NCBI GenBank assembly: GCA_030680605.1
Contig: JAUXUQ010000010.1
Coordinates: forward strand, 148,826 to 212,825
Direction of reading: 5' to 3'
DNA from: Gammaproteobacteria bacterium
GTDB taxonomy: Bacteria; Pseudomonadota; Gammaproteobacteria; SURF-13
DNA: 64,000 nucleotides
A program made the position numbers and the translations under genes. The notes under the pieces were generated by a model, which saw only the letters and a list, made by a program, of their open reading frames with translations, did not search any database and was not told the origin of the DNA. Below, piece by piece: positions 11,915 to 56,346 of this stretch; position 1 is the stretch's first letter; every line of letters starts with the position of its first letter.

Positions 11915-13042
11915 ATGGACTTTAATGAACTGCTGAGAATGGTGGTGCAGAAAAACGCATCGGATCTGTTTATTACTGTGGGCATGCCTCCCAGCATGAA
12001 GGTGCATGGCGCCATCGCACCGGTATCACAGGATGCACTCAGCGCCGAGCAGGCGCGCGCCCTGGCCCTGGGCTTGATGGATGCCAGGCAGCGCGAGGAG
12101 TTTGAGCGTACCCACGAGTGCAATTTTGCCATCAATCCCGAGGGCATCGGGCGCTTCCGTGTGAACGTATTCATACAGCAGCAGCGTACAGGCATGGTGC
12201 TGCGCAAGATTGAAACTGTGATTCCGGATTTCGAGCAACTGAATCTGCCACCCCTGCTGCAGGATATCGCCATGACCAAGCGGGGCTTGGTGCTTTTTGT
12301 CGGTGCTACCGGTTCTGGCAAGTCTACTTCGTTGGCCGCGATGGTGGGTTACCGCAATGAGAACAGCACAGGCCACATTATTACCATCGAGGATCCGATT
12401 GAATTCGTCCATCAGCATCGCCGCTGCATCGTGACGCAGCGCGAGGTAGGCGTGGATACCGAGAGTTTTGAGGCCGCGCTCAAGAACACCCTGCGCCAGG
12501 CGCCGGATGTGATACTGGTGGGCGAGATACGCGCGCGCGAAACCATGGACTATGCCATCGCCTTTGCCGAGACCGGCCACCTGTGCCTGTCCACCCTGCA
12601 CGCCAACAATGCCAATCAGGCCATGGATCGCATCATCAATTTCTTCCCGGAGGAGCGGCGCGCCCAGTTGCTGATGGATCTGTCTCTCAATCTCAAGGCC
12701 GTGATTTCCCAGCGTCTGATCCCGACCATAGACGGCAAGAGCCGGCGTGCGGTGGTGGAAATACTTTTAAATACACCACTCGCCGCTGACTTTATCCTCA
12801 AGGGTGAAGTACATGAGCTGAAGGCGCTGATGGCACGTTCCAACGAGCTGGGGATGAAGACCTTTGATCAGGCGTTATATGAACTCTACTCGGCGGGTGA
12901 GATCAGTTACGATGAGGCCATTCGTAACTCTGACTCACCCAATGAGCTGCGGCTGATGGTCAAACTCAACGAGAAGGACGGTGTCAAGAAGCTGGGCGAT
13001 GCGACAGAGGGACTGTCACTGGTGGATGCGGACAAACACTGA
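11915..13042 (+). CDS. pilU: Type IV pilus retraction ATPase paralogue PilU
   Basis: Begins 'MDFNELLRMVVQKNASDLFIT'. Walker A 'GATGSGKST'. Lies immediately after pilT. Confidence 0.9.
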   Translation: MDFNELLRMVVQKNASDLFITVGMPPSMKVHGAIAPVSQDALSAEQARALALGLMDARQREEFERTHECNFAINPEGIGRFRVNVFIQQQRTGMVLRKIETVIPDFEQLNLPPLLQDIAMTKRGLVLFVGATGSGKSTSLAAMVGYRNENSTGHIITIEDPIEFVHQHRRCIVTQREVGVDTESFEAALKNTLRQAPDVILVGEIRARETMDYAIAFAETGHLCLSTLHANNANQAMDRIINFFPEERRAQLLMDLSLNLKAVISQRLIPTIDGKSRRAVVEILLNTPLAADFILKGEVHELKALMARSNELGMKTFDQALYELYSAGEISYDEAIRNSDSPNELRLMVKLNEKDGVKKLGDATEGLSLVDADKH

Positions 13043-19136: not shown

Positions 19137-19197
19137 ATTTTATCGGCGCGTGGCAAGGTACAGCAAAAGGCCGGTGAGCATGATCCCGGGTATTGCA

Positions 19198-19566
19198 TCA
19201 GAAATTAATGGCGTCGAAGCGTGGTTCACGCCCAATCACCTGCACGGTGATACGGTTGGGCAGACAGGCCGCGACTTCACCGCCCAGTGCCAGCCAGCCG
19301 GTATGGATGCACTGCTTGCCCTGACATGGAGCGTCGACGAAACGAATCTTGCCGGCGCGGATTTCGAGTTCACTGATCCCCAGCGTGCCGGGGATATGCA
19401 GCCGCTGGTCTTTATACAGCGACACCACGCTGAACTCGCTGCCGCCGACCAGAATACGTGCCTGTTCGCCTTGCGTGGCGTCACCCCAGAAGCGGAGGTA
19501 CAGGAATGCCAGCAAGGCCAGCGCTGCAATCAGGATCACGCTATCGGCCCGGTTCAGTGCAAGCAT
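19198..19566 (-). CDS. NusG domain II-containing protein (DUF1312)
   Basis: 122 aa with an N-terminal signal anchor followed by a small beta domain containing conserved Cys ('DAPCQGKQCIHTGW'). A stereotyped partner of Gx-transporter and ApbE genes. Confidence 0.55.
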   Translation of the reverse strand: MLALNRADSVILIAALALLAFLYLRFWGDATQGEQARILVGGSEFSVVSLYKDQRLHIPGTLGISELEIRAGKIRFVDAPCQGKQCIHTGWLALGGEVAACLPNRITVQVIGREPRFDAINF

Positions 19567-20657
19567 TATAGCGCAGGGCTGATGACAAGTTCAGGCGCCG
19601 GTTCGATCTCAAAGCGGATGCGTTTTGCCAGCGCCGGGTCAATATGCACGGTGCCTTGGGCGTCGATCAGCATCACGTGTTTGACGCCCATGGCGTGTGC
19701 GATGCGCTGCCAGTCGTGTACGCCTGCGACCAGCAGTGCGGTGCTCGCGGCGTCTGCGGTGGTGGCGTCGTGCGCCAGCACGGTGACCGACAGTGTGCCT
19801 TGCGCGGGATAGCCGGTGCGCGGATCGAGCACATGGTGGTAGCGTTTGCCCGCGTACTCAAAATAACGTTCGTAGGTGCCGGAGGTAACGATGCTCTCAT
19901 CGCCTTGCAGTTCGATGGAGGCGAAGATGCCGCTGCCACGCGGGTTACGGATGCCAATGCGCCACGGGCGGTCACCGTGTTTGCCGATCACGCGAATATC
20001 GCCGCTGGCATTGACTATCGCATTCTCGACGCCCAGTGTGCGCAGGTGCGCGATGGCGACATCCACCGCATAACCCTGACCGATGGCGCCGACATCGAGT
20101 TGTACGGCTGGATTGGTGCTGTGCAATTGGTTGCCTTCTATCACCACAGCGTCCATGGTCGGGTGCTGTGTGAGCAGTGCGCTGATGACGGCAGGATCCG
20201 GCGGTGGACCTTTGGGTTCGTCGCTCTGAAATCCCCAGTACGCGAATAGCTGGCCGATGGCGGGATTGAACAGGTAATCACTGGCGCTGGACAGGGCGCG
20301 CGCCCGTTCAAGCAGCGGTATCATGTCGGGGTCAACGGAAAATGTCTGACCCGTGGCCAGTTGCGTGTTGATGCGGGTGAGTGGGCTGGGCAGCCACGCA
20401 TGCCAGGTGGTGTGGAAGTGGTTGAAGTCTGCCGTGATGGCATCGGCCGCCCGCCGGGCGGCGTCAGGCTCCAGGCCCCAGATGCTGATGTCTACCAGCG
20501 CACCCAGTGCCAGCAGTTGCTCCTGATACAAGGGCTCCGGCTTACTGCACGATACAGTGGTAAGCAGTGCGATGAGGCAGCAGAGTGGTGCGAATCGCGA
20601 GTGGCGAGTGGCGGGTGGAGAGGGTGCAATAAAAAGCCGGTTATGCACGATTTTCAT
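19566..20657 (-). CDS. apbE: FAD:protein FMN transferase ApbE, predicted lipoprotein
   Basis: ApbE-family motifs 'DVGAIGQGYAVD' and 'LIDAQGTVH', with lipobox 'LLTTVSC'. Start placed at ATG 20657 (MKIVHN...). The longer ORF from 20705 would overlap gshB by 65 nt. Confidence 0.8.
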   Translation of the reverse strand: MKIVHNRLFIAPSPPATRHSRFAPLCCLIALLTTVSCSKPEPLYQEQLLALGALVDISIWGLEPDAARRAADAITADFNHFHTTWHAWLPSPLTRINTQLATGQTFSVDPDMIPLLERARALSSASDYLFNPAIGQLFAYWGFQSDEPKGPPPDPAVISALLTQHPTMDAVVIEGNQLHSTNPAVQLDVGAIGQGYAVDVAIAHLRTLGVENAIVNASGDIRVIGKHGDRPWRIGIRNPRGSGIFASIELQGDESIVTSGTYERYFEYAGKRYHHVLDPRTGYPAQGTLSVTVLAHDATTADAASTALLVAGVHDWQRIAHAMGVKHVMLIDAQGTVHIDPALAKRIRFEIEPAPELVISPAL

Positions 20658-20690
20658 CGCTACTCGCCACTTGTTTTTCAACCACATCGA
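20586..20690 (-). repeat. Junction repeat element copy 2 (gshB/apbE), with inverted GTGGCGAG heptamers flanking ATGAAA
   Basis: On the minus strand the layout is caaGTGGCGAGTAGCg-ATGAAAATC-(41 nt)-CGCCACTCGCCACTCGC. The exact 17-mer CGCCACTCGCCACTCGC also occurs in copy 1. Confidence 0.7.
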
Positions 20691-21648
20691 GAAAAGTGTC
20701 TGCAATATTTAGTCCATACAACGCATCAAGTTCACGCACGCAGGTCGGGCTGGTGACATTGATCTCGGTGAGATAATCACCGATCACATCCAGGCCCGCG
20801 AACAGCAGTCCGCGCGTGCGCAACTCCGGCCCGACTTCGGCGCAGATCCAGCGGTCGCGGGCAGACAGCGGCACGCCTTCGCCGCGTCCGCCTGCGGCCA
20901 GATTGCCGCGGGTTTCGCCAGCAGCGGGAATACGGGCCAGTGCATAGGGCACGGGCTCGCCGTCAATCATCAGGATGCGCTTGTCGCCGGCGCTGATCTC
21001 GGGAATAAAGCGCTGAGCCATGATCAGGCTGGCGCCATTCTGCGTCAGGGTTTCGATCACGACATTAATGTTGGGGTCGCCGCTGCGCAGGCGGAATACC
21101 GACGCGCCGCCCATGCCGTGCAGGGGTTTGAAGATGGTGTCGCCGTGTTCGGTCACAAAGGCGCGCAGTGCCTGAGCGTTGCGCGTGACCAGCGTCGGTG
21201 GTGTGCACTGCGGAAACCAGGTGGCGAACAGCTTTTCATTGCAGTCGCGTAGCGCCTGGGGTTTGTTGATGACCTGTACTCCCGCTATTGCCGCACGTTC
21301 CAGCAGCTGGGTGGTATAGAGATACTCCATGTCAAAGGGCGGATCCTTGCGCAACAGGATGATATCAAGCGTATCGAGCGCAGTGAATTCCGCAGCGCCA
21401 AGCTCAAACCAGTGTTCGGCGTTGTCCTGCACGCTCAGTGTCCGTATCTGTGCAAACACGCGCCCGTCGCGCAGAAACAGGTCACCCTGCTCCATATAAT
21501 GCAACGACCAGTGGCGGCGCTGTGCCGCCAGCAGCATGGCGAAGGTAGTGTCTTTCTTGATGTTGATATCCGCGATGGGATCCATCACCACGCCAAGCTT
21601 GATGCGCGGGTGAGTAGCGAGTGGCGAGTGGCGAGAAAAATCTTTCAT
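20641..21648 (-). CDS. gshB: Glutathione synthetase
   Basis: 'RIKLGVVMDPIADINIKKDTTFAMLLAAQRR' matches the E. coli GshB N-terminus (MIKLGIVMDPIANINIKKDSS). An ATP-grasp C-terminal half is present. A 14-aa N-terminal extension is encoded by the repeat element. Confidence 0.9.
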   Translation of the reverse strand: MKDFSRHSPLATHPRIKLGVVMDPIADINIKKDTTFAMLLAAQRRHWSLHYMEQGDLFLRDGRVFAQIRTLSVQDNAEHWFELGAAEFTALDTLDIILLRKDPPFDMEYLYTTQLLERAAIAGVQVINKPQALRDCNEKLFATWFPQCTPPTLVTRNAQALRAFVTEHGDTIFKPLHGMGGASVFRLRSGDPNINVVIETLTQNGASLIMAQRFIPEISAGDKRILMIDGEPVPYALARIPAAGETRGNLAAGGRGEGVPLSARDRWICAEVGPELRTRGLLFAGLDVIGDYLTEINVTSPTCVRELDALYGLNIADTFLDVVEKQVASSDENRA

Positions 21649-21712
21649 AACCAGTCTTTGGGTGTCCCCTCGTTACTAGCCACTAGCCACTAGCTACTCG
21701 CCACTGCTTGCA
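21601..21712 (-). repeat. Junction repeat element copy 1 (gshA/gshB), with heptamer arrays
   Basis: On the minus strand the layout is GTGGCGAGTAGC + 3 further heptamers (TAGTGGC x2, TAGTAAC), then ATGAAAGAT, then CGCCACTCGCCACTCGC. It spans the gshA stop and the gshB start. Confidence 0.7.
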
Positions 21713-23027
21713 ATTCCCTCGCCGCAGCTACCAGTGCCAGGCGCGCGATCACGCCGTAGGCATAGAAACGGTTGGGGCTGGCGTCCGGTTCCTGCGTCTG
21801 GTCGGGTGAGGTACAGGACTCGGCAAAGGCGAGTGGCTCAAAGTGCATGCCGGGGGCGTTCAGATTTTCATCCGTCCCACGGTTTTTGTGCACACGGTAA
21901 AAGCCGCCCACGACATAATGGTTGATCATGTAGACTACCGGCTCGGCGACGGCCTCGTTACCGGCTTCACCCAGTGTCTCGAAGGTGTATACGCCCTCCT
22001 GCATGATGACCTTGCTCACGGCCTGGCCACCCTTGACCGCTGCCATGCGGGTGCGCTCCTTGCGGTTCAGTTCCCGCATCTCGCTACCGCTGTACACACT
22101 CATTACGCCCATGCCGTAGGTGCCGGCATCGGCCTTTACCACCACGAAGGGCTGCTTTTCGATGCCATATTCATCGTATTTACGCCGGATCGCACCAAGC
22201 AGGGCGTCGACATTGGTGGCGAGGCAGTCTTCGCCCTCGCGCTGCATGAAGTTGATTTCACCACAGCGGCGGAATAACGGATCAATCAGCCATGGATCGA
22301 TATCGATGAGACTGGAAAACTCTGCGACCACCTGTTTGTAGTGCTCGAAGTGGTCGGATTTGAGTCGGTTGGCCCAGCCGAGGGAGAGTGGCGGAAGCAC
22401 GGGTTGCGCCAGGCCTTCCAGCAGGGACGGTCGTCCGGCGGACAGATCATTATTGAGCAGCACCATGCAGGGGGTGAAGCCGTCTACGCTGATGCGTTCG
22501 TCATTGCGGCGTATGGGCTCCAGTTGCAGGCTGCGCTTCGAGGGTAGTATCACATCCAGCGGTTGTTCTAGGCCGGGCAGCAGCGAACCGATACGAACCG
22601 CAAATCCCGCTTTCCTGACAATGTCGCGCAAGGTGGCCAGGCTTTCGAGATAAAACAGGTTTCTGGTGTGATTCTCAGGGATAATCAGTATGTTGGCTGC
22701 GCGTGGGCAGGTGCGTTCGATGGCCGTTTGTACCGCGTGGATACACAGCGGCAGGAAGGCTGGGTTGAGGTTGTTGAAGCCGGCCGGAAACAGATTGGTG
22801 TCGACCGGTGCCAGCTTGAAGCCGCTGTTACGCAGGTCAACCGAGGCATAAAAGGGGGCGGGCGTTGTCAGCCATTGGTGACGTAGCCAGTGTTCAATCT
22901 GCACCTGCTGGGCCAGCAGGTGGCTCTCTATCAGTTGCAGCGGGCCATTGAGCGCCGTGGTGAGGTGGGGAACGGCATGCAGCGCTTCACTACGCATCAG
23001 ATAATCTCTAATGGGGTATTTCGCCAT
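21691..23027 (-). CDS. gshA: Glutamate--cysteine ligase, probably of the rare Acidithiobacillus ferrooxidans-type family
   Basis: About 445 aa from 'MAKYPIRDY'. It is not the E. coli-type GshA, and its position upstream of gshB suggests the function. The family assignment comes from memory of TIGR02049, not from a search. Confidence 0.5.
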
Positions 23028-23138
23028 CCCCGGGGTTGTCAGCTTCGATGCACGCCGGAGACGACAAGCATCATAACATGAGAGCTTTCCCGGGGTGGAG
23101 TCCCGTTGGTCAGGGCGGGAAAACGCCATGGAGCACAG

Positions 23139-23167
23139 TTGTGAAATCGAGGTTAATATCCTACCAT
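23139..23167 (+). promoter_or_regulatory. Candidate sigma-70 promoter for pilG (TTGTGA-17 nt-TACCAT)
   Basis: Read in the divergent gshA/pilG intergenic region, about 40 nt upstream of the pilG ATG. Confidence 0.35.
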
Positions 23168-23208
23168 GCCAAACATAGGGGATCCCATGCTGGGGCAAGA
23201 GCGACAGG

Positions 23209-23616
23209 ATGAGCGCTGACGCAGAAAAAGACGGCTTCAGTGGGTTGAGGGTGATGGTAATTGATGACAGCAAGACCATCCGGCGCACCGCCGAAACGCT
23301 GCTGAAAATGGCAGGCTGCGAGGTGGTCACGGCCACCGATGGTTTTGAGGCCCTGTCCAAGATTGCCGACCAGAAGCCCGAGATCATCTTCGTGGATATC
23401 ATGATGCCGCGTCTGGATGGCTACCAGACCTGTGCGCTTATCAAGCACAACAAGACCTACCGGCATACACCAGTAATCATGTTGTCGAGCCGCGACGGCT
23501 TGTTTGACAAGGCCCGCGGACGCATTGTGGGCTCGGCACAATACCTTACCAAGCCCTTCACCAAGGATGAGTTGCTCGGCGCGATCAAGCGCCATGTTAT
23601 CGACGCGCATTGCTGA
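23209..23616 (+). CDS. pilG: Twitching-motility CheY-like response regulator PilG
   Basis: Single REC domain ('VMVIDDSKTIRR', 'IFVDIMMPRLDG', 'YLTKPF'), first gene of the pilGHIJ-chpABC cluster. Confidence 0.88.
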   Translation: MSADAEKDGFSGLRVMVIDDSKTIRRTAETLLKMAGCEVVTATDGFEALSKIADQKPEIIFVDIMMPRLDGYQTCALIKHNKTYRHTPVIMLSSRDGLFDKARGRIVGSAQYLTKPFTKDELLGAIKRHVIDAHC

Positions 23617-55117: not shown

Positions 55118-56346
55118 GTGGGTTTGAAAAATGTACGGGTTTCAAAAATGGAGCGGGCAAACTGTCTGGCGCCAAGGCGTAGCTGGCGCTTGGTGACAAA
55201 ATCAAACAGCAATGGGTTGTAGGTGCGCAGCGCTTGCAGAATGGGTACGGCGGCGGCATCCAGCAACTGCAAGTCAACCAGCAGGCGCATTGAGAACAGC
55301 GGCATGACGCCGGGTAGCGGGTAGTCCGAACCGTTGAGCAGTCGCGCGTGCCAGTCATCACGTTGCAGTACCCGTTTGAGATGGTGCGCGCGGTTGGTCT
55401 GCGTCATGGCCGAGATGTCGCCAAACAATTTGCCATAGTAGCGCGGGTCATCCATAAGGCGCTCGAACAAATCGATGCTGTCCACCCACGGGCCGTTTGT
55501 GCCGCGATCCAGGTCGCGATCCTGGCCCAGCGAGGCGCAGTGTGCTGTTACTACGCGCACGCCGTGCTCCAGGGCGCGGCGCAACCTGAGCGGGTTGCCG
55601 TATTCCTGGTGGTTGCCACCGTGCAAGGCACGCTCAGTGCCCGCATGGGTAATGAGCGAAATGTCATGCCGGGCCAGCGCCGCATAAAAGCGGTCACACA
55701 ACGGCGAGGCGGGATCAATACCCATTGCCGCTGGCAGCCATTTTATGGCGCGCGCACCCTGGGTAACGGCATCATCCAGGGCCGCTACGCAATCACGCCG
55801 GTAGGGATGGATAGAGGCCACCCACTCGTACCAATCCGGGTGTTGCTGCGCCACCTGGCGGGCGTAATTGTTCGGTGTATAAAGTGTGGTGCGGCGCTCA
55901 TCGGGTGCGCCGGCCTCGGTGTAGTAGCGGTCAAAGGCCAGCAACAGCAGCTTGCTGCCGTTGCGCATGTCCCCCATCAGGCGGTTCATGCGCCGCAGAT
56001 AACCCCGGTCAATTCCATCGCTGCCGCCGCTGGCGCAGCCGCCATTCAGAAAGAATCGCTTTTGCGCATATTGAACCGGGTGTAACAGACTGTCCATGTC
56101 AATGCTCACCCGGATACCACTGCCGCTGTCGCCGGTACCTATGAGGTGGGCATGGCTGTCCCAGACATTCTCGGGGCGCAGTCCGTGCCATGCGGCCTGC
56201 ACCAGTTCATGTTGCGCGAGACGGCTCGGTAAACTATCGAGACAGGGATTGATGAAACCTTGTTCCGGCCATAGCCGCCAGCCGGTCACGCCCAGCACCG
56301 GCAGTGCAAGTGCGGCCCCGCCCCGCAGGAAATCCCGCCGCTTCAT
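55114..56346 (-). CDS. Tat-exported amidohydrolase-family (amidohydrolase_2-like) metal-dependent hydrolase
   Basis: 'MKRRDFLRGGAALALPVLG' Tat signal with a TIM-barrel hydrolase His/Asp pattern. Four-base ATGA overlaps on both sides with aas and lplT. Confidence 0.65.
   Translation of the reverse strand: MKRRDFLRGGAALALPVLGVTGWRLWPEQGFINPCLDSLPSRLAQHELVQAAWHGLRPENVWDSHAHLIGTGDSGSGIRVSIDMDSLLHPVQYAQKRFFLNGGCASGGSDGIDRGYLRRMNRLMGDMRNGSKLLLLAFDRYYTEAGAPDERRTTLYTPNNYARQVAQQHPDWYEWVASIHPYRRDCVAALDDAVTQGARAIKWLPAAMGIDPASPLCDRFYAALARHDISLITHAGTERALHGGNHQEYGNPLRLRRALEHGVRVVTAHCASLGQDRDLDRGTNGPWVDSIDLFERLMDDPRYYGKLFGDISAMTQTNRAHHLKRVLQRDDWHARLLNGSDYPLPGVMPLFSMRLLVDLQLLDAAAVPILQALRTYNPLLFDFVTKRQLRLGARQFARSIFETRTFFKPT

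What the first reader, a model, noticed from the sequence alone, without database searches (positions are those of the whole stretch)
20586..21712. Duplicated start-codon-bracketing repeat element at two consecutive gene junctions (gshA|gshB and gshB|apbE)
Two ~100-bp segments share the same architecture on the coding (minus) strand. Each has an upstream arm GTGGCGAGTAGC, then ATGAAA(A/G)AT, then an exact 17-mer CGCCACTCGCCACTCGC 15-41 nt later. Copy 1 adds three more upstream heptamers (TAGTGGC x2, TAGTAAC).

The upstream arm encodes the C-terminal residues 'VASS' of both gshA and gshB. The downstream arm encodes an N-terminal 'ATRHS / SRHSPLATH' peptide in both gshB and apbE.

The arms are mutually complementary (GUGGCGAGU versus ACUCGCCAC). 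In the mRNA they can therefore form a stem that encloses the start codon, and neither ATG has an adjacent Shine-Dalgarno.

This looks like either a small mobile/recombinogenic junction cassette or a shared translational-control hairpin coupling glutathione synthesis to the ApbE flavinylation locus. I do not recognise it as a described element.
Basis: seen in the sequence. Interest (0 to 1): 0.65.

Follow-up and report, generated by a model that had tools for sequence, protein, structure and literature searches.

The report
Heptamer-repeat hairpins flanking gshB
The two look-alike segments on either side of the glutathione synthetase gene are hairpin-forming pairs of short 7-base tandem repeats, a kind of bacterial repeat already described in Xanthomonas and cyanobacteria, which here have grown into the ends of the neighbouring genes; they are not a dedicated glutathione/ApbE control element.

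Summary
Both exact repeats (the 17-mer and the 12-mer) occur twice, at the stated places, far above chance.

The "arms" are short tandem arrays of a 7-nt unit. GGCGAGT/GGCTAGT lies on the 5' side and its complement ACTCGCC on the 3' side. Each pair folds into a long mRNA hairpin (z = -3.7 and -3.2).

In each hairpin the 5' array holds the last codons of the upstream gene; at gshA|gshB it also holds that gene's stop codon. The loop holds the downstream start codon. The 3' array is translated as an N-terminal extension of GshB and ApbE.

Relatives with the same gene order carry hairpins at the same junctions. Unit number varies, and three different unit types occur, each with a complementary partner arm. 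One lineage has lost both hairpins and one lacks the gshA|gshB hairpin. The same hairpins also sit at unrelated junctions.

The 17-mer itself occurs as heptamer arrays in more than 120 loci from many phyla.

This matches the published class of heptameric simple-sequence-repeat pairs (Xanthomonas GGGAATC, cyanobacterial STRR hairpins). The likely local effect is occlusion of the downstream start, which would give translational coupling; this is inferred, not shown.

Verdict: a new member of a known kind, of modest interest.

The parts
21690..22997 (-). gshA (glutamate-cysteine ligase, 435 aa from ATG 22997). Its last codons (AVASS) and its TAG stop (21690-21692) lie inside the J1 5' array.
   Evidence: TIGR02049 match at 9e-179. 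The start and C-terminal tail were compared with orthologues.
21673..21705 (-). J1 5' array: GCGAGTA GCTAGTG GCTAGTG GCTAGTA (G-rich arm). It carries TAG triplets in successive frames.
   Evidence: TRF period 7, 4.4 copies. Sequence read. Pairs with 21610-21635 in the MFE fold.
21636..21672 (-). J1 loop, containing the gshB start codon ATG at 21646-21648.
   Evidence: The ATGAAAGA start is conserved in L124, L135 and L136.
21610..21635 (-). J1 3' array: CTCGCCA CTCGCCA CTCGCTA CTCAC (C-rich arm). It is translated as GshB residues SRHSPLATH within a 15-aa N-terminal extension.
   Evidence: TRF period 7, 3.4 copies. The GshB profile match starts only at residue 16. The extension is kept in frame in four lineages.
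20641..21648 (-). gshB (glutathione synthase, 335 aa).
   Evidence: NF003573/TIGR01380 match at about 1e-139.
20658..20673 (-). J2 5' array: CAAGTGGCGAGTAGCG, coding GshB residues QVASS.
   Evidence: The same heptamer-coded tail (KQVASSK / KQVASGK) is seen in many GshB homologues.
20623..20657 (-). J2 loop. It contains the apbE ATG (20655-20657), an alternative GTG (20646-20648) and the gshB stop TAA (20641-20643). The genes overlap by 17 nt.
   Evidence: The gene call of 363 aa from this ATG is on an independent contig.
20590..20622 (-). J2 3' array: CTCTCCA CCCGCCA CTCGCCA CTCGCGA TTCGC. It is translated as part of the long n-region of the ApbE signal peptide (PSPPATRHSRF).
   Evidence: TRF period 7, 3.7 copies. 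Fold.
19566..20657 (-). apbE (FAD:protein FMN transferase, putative lipoprotein).
   Evidence: NF007774 match. Pfam ApbE on the called gene.
19145..19184 (-). Decayed third copy at the NusG_II|Hpre junction. It has the J2-type loop and a relic of the 3' arm, but no 5' arm.
   Evidence: nhmmer hit to loop positions 23-64 of the element model, E = 0.002. The intact copy in relative L122 lies at 12481-12555.

Best explanation
Each "cassette" is an inverted pair of short heptanucleotide tandem arrays. A G-rich array of GGCGAGT/GGCTAGT units is followed, 44-54 nt later, by a C-rich array of the complementary ACTCGCC units. This is repeat DNA of the heptameric simple-sequence-repeat kind. It grows and shrinks by whole units, its two arms stay complementary while the unit sequence drifts, and it is scattered over gene junctions in this lineage.

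At the two tight junctions around gshB the repeats have been absorbed into the genes:
- The 5' array provides the last codons of the upstream gene, and at gshA|gshB also its stop codon.
- The downstream start codon lies in the loop (gshB) or at the top of the stem (apbE).
- The 3' array is translated as an N-terminal extension.

In the operon mRNA the pair folds into a 13-19 bp stem. The most likely consequence is that the downstream start is occluded until a ribosome finishing the upstream gene melts the 5' arm. That would give translational coupling. The stem could also act as a barrier to 3' exonucleases.

Shown: the anatomy, the folding potential, conservation with co-variation of the arms, dispensability, and generic distribution. 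Inferred: any effect on translation or mRNA stability.
For: Anatomy:
- Period-7 arrays.
- Exact repeats far above chance.
- Hairpins with z = -3.7 and -3.2.
- The GshB profile match starts at residue 16, so the 3' array is an add-on.

Orthologous loci with the same gene order:
- Hairpins sit at the same two junctions in most relatives, with z down to -5.3.
- The 5' arm differs by exactly two units between the window and the 91%-identical relative.
- At gshA|gshB three unit types occur: GGCGAGT, GAGGAGT and GGCTAGG. The first and third face the complementary unit in every lineage that carries them. GAGGAGT does so in L125, while L128 keeps only a 1.4-unit 3' arm.
- GshA tails and GshB N-termini are lineage-specific translations of these arrays.

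Generic nature:
- Hairpins of the same kind lie at pyrB|pyrC, tonB|DUF179 and NusG_II|Hpre in relatives. Five of six extra arrays are intergenic.
- The 17-mer occurs in more than 120 loci from many phyla. 121 of 129 arrays have at least 3 units. 30 have an inverted partner 5' of them, against 7 of 599 control flanks.
- Period 7 dominates the tandem repeats in those loci.

Literature:
- The same layout is described for Xanthomonas GGGAATC repeats. There the G-rich array lies within 50 bp after a stop on the sense strand, the C-rich strand lies before the next ORF, and each genome holds 70-75 convergent pairs (PMC4692102).
- Cyanobacterial STRR hairpins between hupS and hupL were proposed to affect transcript stability or translational coupling (PMC2670836).
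Against: - The copy number in the source genome could not be measured. The 64-kb window holds only these two loci plus one relic.
- No expression data exist, so coupling or occlusion is pure inference.
- The hairpins are absent from one close relative (L136) and from the gshA|gshB junction of L127. Whatever they do is therefore not essential.
- Three junction copies share a loop sequence. Pure in-place slippage does not explain that.
Confidence: 0.75

Rival explanations
1. It is a small mobile element (MITE- or REP-like) that inserts as a unit of arms plus loop into gene junctions and is moved by a transposase encoded elsewhere.
For: - Copies at gshB|apbE (window, L122) and at NusG_II|Hpre (L122 intact, window relic) share a loop, GAAAATCGTGCATMACCGGCCTTTTGYTGTRCC. 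The gshA|gshB copy in L122 shares only its 5' part, AAAACCGTGCACAACC.
- L136 has an 8-nt empty site where L122 has the 75-nt element.
- A fixed arm polarity, as expected for terminal inverted repeats, holds in 42 of 43 pairs.
Against: - No target-site duplication is visible at the filled versus the empty site.
- All loop-sharing copies lie within 2.5 kb of each other, so local gene conversion is enough to explain them.
- The gshA|gshB copy in the window has a different loop.
- A metagenome scan for the loop found only 4 unrelated coding matches.
- No transposase was looked for or seen near the copies.
- Arms change by whole heptamer units, which is slippage behaviour.
Confidence: 0.15
2. It is a dedicated translational-control hairpin that couples glutathione synthesis to the ApbE flavinylation locus.
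For: - The start codons of gshB and apbE are enclosed by or abut the stem.
- Adjacent Shine-Dalgarno sequences are weak or absent.
- The hairpins persist at both junctions in several relatives.
Against: - Both hairpins are absent in L136, which keeps gshA-gshB-apbE. The gshA|gshB hairpin is absent in L127.
- The gshB 3' hairpin persists in L127 and L130, where apbE is deleted.
- Hairpins of the same kind flank unrelated genes and do not enclose their starts.
- The unit is generic across phyla.
Confidence: 0.05
3. It is a transcription terminator or attenuator between the cistrons.
For: In L130 and L128 the gshB 3' hairpin is followed by a run of T. In L130 it is an 18-bp perfect stem followed by CTACTTTTTTG.
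Against: In the window neither hairpin is followed by a T-run, and the terminator scan reports nothing at either junction. The 3' arms lie inside coding sequence.
Confidence: 0.04
4. It is a phase-variation switch. Gain or loss of one 7-nt unit in the translated 3' array would frameshift gshB or apbE on and off.
For: The unit length is not a multiple of three and the 3' arrays are inside the ORFs. Unit number does vary, in the non-coding part of the 5' arm.
Against: - The arrays are short (3.4-3.7 units).
- The 15-aa GshB extension keeps the same length and frame in four lineages.
- The genes are housekeeping genes.
Confidence: 0.01

Closest known systems
Convergent pairs of heptameric simple sequence repeats in Xanthomonas (GGGAATC) and Nostoc (GGGGAYT) (Rehm et al. 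2015, PMC4692102)
   Same: - 7-nt units in tandem, mostly about 4 units.
- Frequent pairs in convergent orientation that can form stem-loops.
[quoted passage not shown]
- Unit number varies between related genomes while the type (single or pair) is kept.
- Found in a gammaproteobacterial host.
   Different: - The unit here (GGCGAGT) has no G3 tract, so it cannot form the G-quadruplex that defines that class.
- Here the arrays overlap the coding ends and are translated.
- The genome-wide copy number is unknown.
Cyanobacterial STRR heptamer hairpins in intercistronic regions such as hupS-hupL (PMC2670836). STRR sequences also occur inside the RNase P RNA gene (Vioque 1997; only its title was seen, in the reference list of PMC2858038).
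   Same: 7-bp tandem repeats that form a hairpin between two cistrons of one operon. Proposed roles are transcript stability or translational coupling.
   Different: Different phylum and different units (CCCCAGT, TTGGTCA, CAACAGT; recalled from my own knowledge of Mazel et al. 1990). Those hairpins are intergenic and not translated.
TAACTGA heptamer direct repeats of marine Beggiatoaceae (MacGregor 2015, PMC4679880)
   Same: Heptamer arrays concentrated directly upstream of start codons in Gammaproteobacteria. Stop codons fall in successive frames, as with the GCTAGTG units of the J1 5' arm. A translational role was proposed.
   Different: Those are almost all direct repeats (169 direct sets, one inverted). 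They are AT-rich and do not form hairpins.
REP/BIME extragenic palindromes of enterobacteria (my own knowledge: Newbury et al. 1987 on mRNA stabilisation; Liang, Rudd and Deutscher 2015 on REPs within 15 nt of a stop codon)
   Same: Dispersed palindromes in operon junctions. They form mRNA stem-loops that protect upstream mRNA and can affect translation termination of the upstream gene. The heptamers contain GTAG/GTGG, which resembles the REP head.
   Different: REP arms are not tandem arrays. REPs are extragenic. Their link to a RAYT transposase was not tested here.

Membership tests
Heptameric SSR pairs (Xanthomonas/Nostoc type, PMC4692102) | Head-to-tail copies of a 7-nt unit, 2-26 units with about 4 preferred | tested here: met
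   TRF period 7, 3.4-4.4 copies at three arrays.
Heptameric SSR pairs (Xanthomonas/Nostoc type, PMC4692102) | Two arrays close together in convergent orientation (G-rich strands pointing at each other) | tested here: met
   Both junctions have the G-rich arm 5' and the C-rich arm 3'. Across all loci 42 of 43 pairs do.
Heptameric SSR pairs (Xanthomonas/Nostoc type, PMC4692102) | Located between co-oriented ORFs, within 50 bp of the stop (G-rich on the sense strand) and of the next start | tested here: met
   Here the arrays even overlap the ORF ends.
Heptameric SSR pairs (Xanthomonas/Nostoc type, PMC4692102) | A G3 tract in each unit, giving G-quadruplex potential | tested here: not met
   The units GGCGAGT and GGCTAGT have at most GG. 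This is the same kind of repeat but not a member of the G4-forming class.
Heptameric SSR pairs (Xanthomonas/Nostoc type, PMC4692102) | Spread all over the genome (about 180 sites) | not testable with these tools
   Only 64 kb of the source genome is held, with 2 loci and 1 relic. About 140 kb from relatives adds 6 arrays at other sites. The genome scan stopped before reaching the source MAG.
Cyanobacterial STRR | Units CCCCAGT / TTGGTCA / CAACAGT in heterocystous cyanobacteria | tested here: not met
   Different unit. The host is a gammaproteobacterial MAG.
REP / BIME / REPIN | 20-40 nt imperfect palindrome with a conserved GT[AG]G head, extragenic, hundreds of copies, with a cognate RAYT gene | tested here: inconclusive
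   It is a palindrome, and GTAG/GTGG is present in each unit. But the arms are tandem arrays, they are partly coding, the copy number is unknown, and no RAYT was searched for.
MITE | Terminal inverted repeats plus a target-site duplication, with empty sites in relatives | tested here: inconclusive
   Inverted arms are present, and there is an empty site (L136 versus L122 at NusG_II|Hpre). No duplication is visible at the borders.
Intrinsic terminator | GC-rich stem followed by a U-tract | tested here: not met
   No terminator-like site at either junction in the window. T-runs follow the stem only in L130 and L128.
Phase-variable contingency SSR | Unit-number variants that shift the reading frame of the gene | tested here: not met
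   The translated 3' array keeps its length and frame in four lineages. Variation is seen only in the 5' arm after the stop.
Any Rfam family | Score at or above the gathering threshold | tested here: not met
   The only match is mir-483 at 24.8 bits against a threshold of 60, a generic hairpin match.

The most novel reading that the evidence does not exclude
Inverted heptamer-array hairpins may be a cross-phylum class of self-renewing elements with a fixed build, rather than passive slippage products.

- In 42 of 43 complementary pairs, covering more than 15 unrelated unit sequences from Flavobacteriales, Planctomycetota, Chloroflexota, Alphaproteobacteria and this lineage, the G-rich array is 5' and the C-rich array 3'. 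That topology is the same on both strands.
- Both arms change unit sequence together.

This would point to a dedicated origin or maintenance process. One possibility is repeat addition to 3' ends at a break followed by head-to-head joining, as in telomere fusions. Another is arm-to-arm correction in an extruded hairpin. A third is a strand-symmetric RNA-level constraint such as never exposing the C-rich arm single-stranded.
Probability: 0.15. Interest if true: 0.65.

Novelty: new member of a known kind. Interest (0 to 1): 0.33.

Why it matters
On its own it matters little: it is a clear, well-resolved example of a known but poorly studied repeat class. It shows three things worth keeping.

1. 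Such repeats can be absorbed into genes. They supply stop codons, house start codons and add lineage-specific terminal peptides, including part of a signal peptide. This misleads gene callers and inflates apparent protein diversity.
2. Both arms co-evolve through at least three unit types at one orthologous site. That gives a natural system for asking how palindromic repeat arrays are kept complementary.
3. They mark deletion breakpoints of the adjacent apbE module in relatives.

If the polarity rule holds in an unbiased survey, it would constrain models for the long-noted but unexplained excess of 7-nt repeats in bacteria.

Tried and rejected
- Exact look-up of the 335-aa GshB found nothing. 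Other window proteins identified the source as an NCBI gammaproteobacterial MAG with a 308,587-bp contig.
The within-genome copy number therefore stays unknown.
- Two crude attempts to relate arrays in the 120 loci to gene starts and gene orientation were uninformative.
  - With long-ORF starts the control rate was already 38%.
  - With GC-phase strand calling only 71% of test windows were called correctly, and no orientation bias was seen: ++ 26, -- 18, -+ 8, +- 8.
- The metagenome scan for the J2 loop pattern gave 4 unrelated coding matches.
- Rfam gave nothing.
- No promoter or terminator signal stood out at the junctions.
- Literature searches for the repeat sequence itself returned no paper.
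- Chance was rejected.
- I did not attempt a column-wise covariation count. The arms differ in unit number and register between lineages, so any alignment would be fitted to the structure. Unit-level co-variation is reported instead.
Full report
**Setting**

The window comes from an uncultured gammaproteobacterial MAG in NCBI. Ten window proteins match entries MDP1708490-MDP1708543 exactly, on a 308,587-bp contig. On the minus strand the genes run in this order:
- gshA (TIGR02049 type; 435 aa from ATG 22997)
- gshB (20641-21648)
- apbE (ATG 20657 to 19566)
- a NusG_II-domain gene
- an Hpre_diP_synt_I gene
- tonB

These assignments rest. The gshB and apbE ORFs overlap by 17 nt.

**Observation**

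- The 17-mer CGCCACTCGCCACTCGC is exact at 20597-20613 and 21617-21633. With up to 3 mismatches there are 9 matches against 0.84 expected.
- GTGGCGAGTAGC is exact at 20659-20670 and 21693-21704.

The decisive extra fact is that the "arms" are tandem arrays of a 7-nt unit. Tandem Repeats Finder reports period 7 at 21675-21705 (4.4 copies), 21612-21635 (3.4) and 20597-20622 (3.7).

On the coding strand the upstream arm reads GCGAGTA GCTAGTG GCTAGTG GCTAGTA. The downstream arm reads CTCGCCA CTCGCCA CTCGCTA, which is its complement.

Folded as RNA, both junctions give one long arm-to-arm hairpin.
- J1 (gshA|gshB): -56.7 kcal/mol, z = -3.66, with a core of 7+6+6 pairs interrupted by one mismatch per unit.
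- J2 (gshB|apbE): -37.5 kcal/mol, z = -3.15, with 10+3 pairs.

At J1 the 5' array holds the last codons of gshA and its TAG stop (21690-21692). At J2 the 5' array holds gshB codons QVASS, and the gshB stop (20641-20643) lies in the loop. The downstream ATG lies in the loop at J1 and at the top of the stem at J2. The 3' array lies inside the downstream ORF.

The GshB family profile begins to match only at residue 16. The peptide MKDFSRHSPLATHPR is therefore a repeat-encoded extension.

**Relatives**

GshB homologues at 73-91% identity show N-terminal extensions and C-terminal tails that read like translated heptamer arrays. Examples are SRLTPHSS...SLLTPHSS, APSPQPPAPL and VASSKWQVASGK. Others start canonically with MSLRLG or MTLRLG.

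I fetched nine independent loci with the same gene order and read both junctions.

At J1:
- The window, L122, L124, L130 and L135 carry GGCGAGT/GGCTAGT arrays facing ACTCGCC arrays.
- L125 and L128 carry GAGGAGT/GTGAGGA arrays. In L125 they face long CCTCACT arrays. In L128 the 3' arm is reduced to about 1.4 units.
- L129 carries GGCTAGG/GGCTGGG facing CCCTAGC/CCCCAGC.
- L127 has no heptamers and a canonical start.
- L136 has only decayed traces.

So the unit sequence has changed at least twice at one orthologous site. Apart from L128, the opposite arm is complementary each time.

The folds are strongly non-random in most of these loci: z = -5.1 for L125 J1, -3.6 for L129 J1, -5.3 for L122 J2, -4.1 for L130 J2 and -4.7 for L128 J2.

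The closest relative (L135, 91% identity) differs from the window by exactly two units (14 nt) in the untranslated part of the 5' arm. Its translated 3' arm keeps its length and shows only substitutions. The start ATGAAAGA is conserved even in L136, which lacks the arms. It is therefore the real gshB start.

GshA tails after the conserved LALVAAAREL differ by lineage: AVASS, TVRNEG, LTAEAGG and INDSGQ.

**Not specific to gsh or apbE**

In the relatives TRF finds further heptamer arrays, and five of six are intergenic.
- A perfect inverted pair lies at pyrB|pyrC in L128 (z = -5.9).
- One lies at tonB|DUF179 in L125 (z = -3.6).
- One lies at NusG_II|Hpre in L122 (z = -4.4).
- Single arrays lie before DHODB in L124 and between two response-regulator genes in L128.

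These hairpins start at or just after the upstream stop codon but do not enclose the next start. The start-bracketing seen in the window is therefore a by-product of very short spacers.

The hairpins are also dispensable. L136/L137 (88% identity) keep gshA-gshB-apbE with no hairpins, an ordinary ApbE signal peptide and an 8-nt NusG_II|Hpre spacer.

**Generic across bacteria**

Hits came from Flavobacteriales, Planctomycetota, Acidobacteriota, Chloroflexota, Cyanobacteria, Brevundimonas, Chromatiaceae, Vibrio and others.
- Almost all hits are true arrays: 121 of 129 have at least 3 units.
- Thirty arrays have a complementary array within 150 nt on the 5' side and only two on the 3' side. Control flanks gave 7 of 599.
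- In these 855 kb, period 7 is by far the commonest tandem-repeat period (298 arrays against 85 or fewer for any other period). 167 arrays have other unit sequences.

**What is known**

- Heptanucleotide repeats have been reported as the most abundant class of longer simple sequence repeats in most of the prokaryotic genomes surveyed (Mrazek 2007, as summarised in PMC4679880 and PMC4692102).
- Rehm et al. describe, in Xanthomonas, GGGAATC arrays of about four units lying between co-oriented genes. They lie within 50 bp after a stop on the sense strand or within 50 bp upstream of an ORF on the antisense strand. Each genome has 70-75 convergent inverted pairs able to form stem-loops, and repeat length varies between species.
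- In filamentous cyanobacteria, 7-bp STRR repeats form hairpins between hupS and hupL. Proposed roles are transcript stability or translational coupling.
- TAACTGA arrays upstream of start codons in Beggiatoaceae are another relative.

The feature here has the same anatomy and placement. It differs in three ways: its unit cannot form a G-quadruplex, its host lineage is different, and it is partly translated. I therefore file it as a new member of a known kind, not as a member of the G4-forming class or of STRR in the strict sense.

**Mechanism**

Shown:
- the repeat anatomy
- the hairpin potential
- unit-number change between relatives
- co-variation of the arms
- absorption into the ORF ends

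Inferred:
- In the operon mRNA the stem hides the downstream start.
- A ribosome finishing the upstream gene must unwind the 5' arm, because that arm lies within the upstream ORF's last codons at both junctions.
- That unwinding frees the loop and gives translational coupling.

A stabilising effect on the upstream mRNA segment, or stalling at the stop codon as reported for REP elements, is equally possible. That comparison rests on my own knowledge.

Coding constraints are visible in the arms. The untranslated part of the J1 5' arm uses GCTAGTG units, which give TAG in successive frames. The translated 3' arm uses CACTCGC, which has no stop. This explains the regular one-per-unit mismatch in the stem.

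**Recombinogenic behaviour**

Copies share a loop sequence.
- The copies at gshB|apbE (window, L122) and at NusG_II|Hpre (L122) share it in full.
- L122's gshA|gshB copy carries only its first part.
- The window keeps a relic of it at 19145-19184.

Whole hairpins have therefore been copied between junctions 1-2.5 kb apart.

The apbE-NusG_II-Hpre module is decaying in three relatives, always with its left breakpoint at the gshB 3' hairpin.
- L124 has an ApbE(17-311)-Hpre(93-167) fusion without a signal peptide.
- L127 keeps the hairpin, then a CCTCACG/CCTCACA/CCTCACC array, then remnants of Hpre.
- L130 keeps the hairpin plus a T-run, then the last codons of Hpre, then tonB.

It does not show transposition. 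No target duplication is visible, and a metagenome scan for the loop found only unrelated matches.

**Unexplained**

Among all complementary period-7 pairs in the sequences I hold, 42 of 43 have the G-rich array first. The ratio is 19:1 for units unrelated to GCGAGTG. By my own arithmetic the binomial p is about 1e-11.

This topology is identical on both strands, so gene orientation cannot explain it. It agrees with the "convergent" pairs reported in Xanthomonas. My sample is biased by how the loci were chosen, so the rule needs an unbiased survey.

**Verdict**

Interest is modest.

Noticed in passing
all loci held (L002-L130, window); examples L016 2955-3005, L028 7689-7794, L075 5681-5749, L128 16654-16745: Polarity rule. 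In 42 of 43 complementary heptamer-array pairs the G-rich array is 5' and the C-rich array 3'. For units unrelated to GCGAGTG the ratio is 19:1. The topology is the same on both strands, so it is not a gene-orientation effect.
   Followed up: partly
window 19145-19184 (minus); L122 12481-12555: A third, decayed copy of the gshB|apbE-type hairpin (loop and 3'-arm relic only) lies in the NusG_II|Hpre spacer of the window. It is intact in relative L122. L136 has an 8-nt empty spacer there.
   Followed up: yes
L124 10993-12039; L127 10958-11250; L130 4593-4697: The apbE-NusG_II-Hpre module is independently degraded in three relatives, each time with the left breakpoint at the gshB 3' hairpin. L124 has an ApbE-Hpre fusion lacking the signal peptide. 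L127 and L130 keep only remnants of Hpre.
   Followed up: partly
L128 12430-12695; L125 12430-12612: The NusG_II|Hpre spacer of other relatives holds different, much larger palindromes. L128 has a roughly 250-nt hairpin at -115.7 kcal/mol built from ACGCAAAG/GCGCCAAG-type units. This junction seems to be a hot spot for palindromic inserts.
   Followed up: no
L124 16740-16840: Two REP-like palindromes (GGGTTAGGCGCGG...GCGCCGTAACCC and GTTGGGTTACGCG...CGCTAACCCAAC) lie in the pyrC|DHODB spacer, next to a single ACTCGCC array 4 nt upstream of the start.
   Followed up: no
window 55120-55157: A 17-nt direct repeat (GGGTTTCAAAAATGGAC, 2.2 copies) lies immediately upstream of the lplT start (ATG 55117), inside the 3' end of the upstream amidohydrolase gene.
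   Followed up: no
window 20590-20683 versus 21608-21701: The two whole hairpin elements (94 nt each) are 71% complementary to each other. The gshB body is therefore bracketed by a 94-nt inverted repeat 924 nt apart (I1).
   Followed up: no
L127 16245-16848; L128 18102-18691: Toxin-antitoxin pairs (VapB/PIN in L127, HigB/HTH in L128) are inserted between pyrC and the DHODB gene in two relatives but not in the window.
   Followed up: no
window 21690-23402: The longest gshA ORF is 570 aa, but orthologues and the family profile place the start at ATG 22997 (435 aa). The upstream 135 codons are an open-frame artefact.
   Followed up: yes
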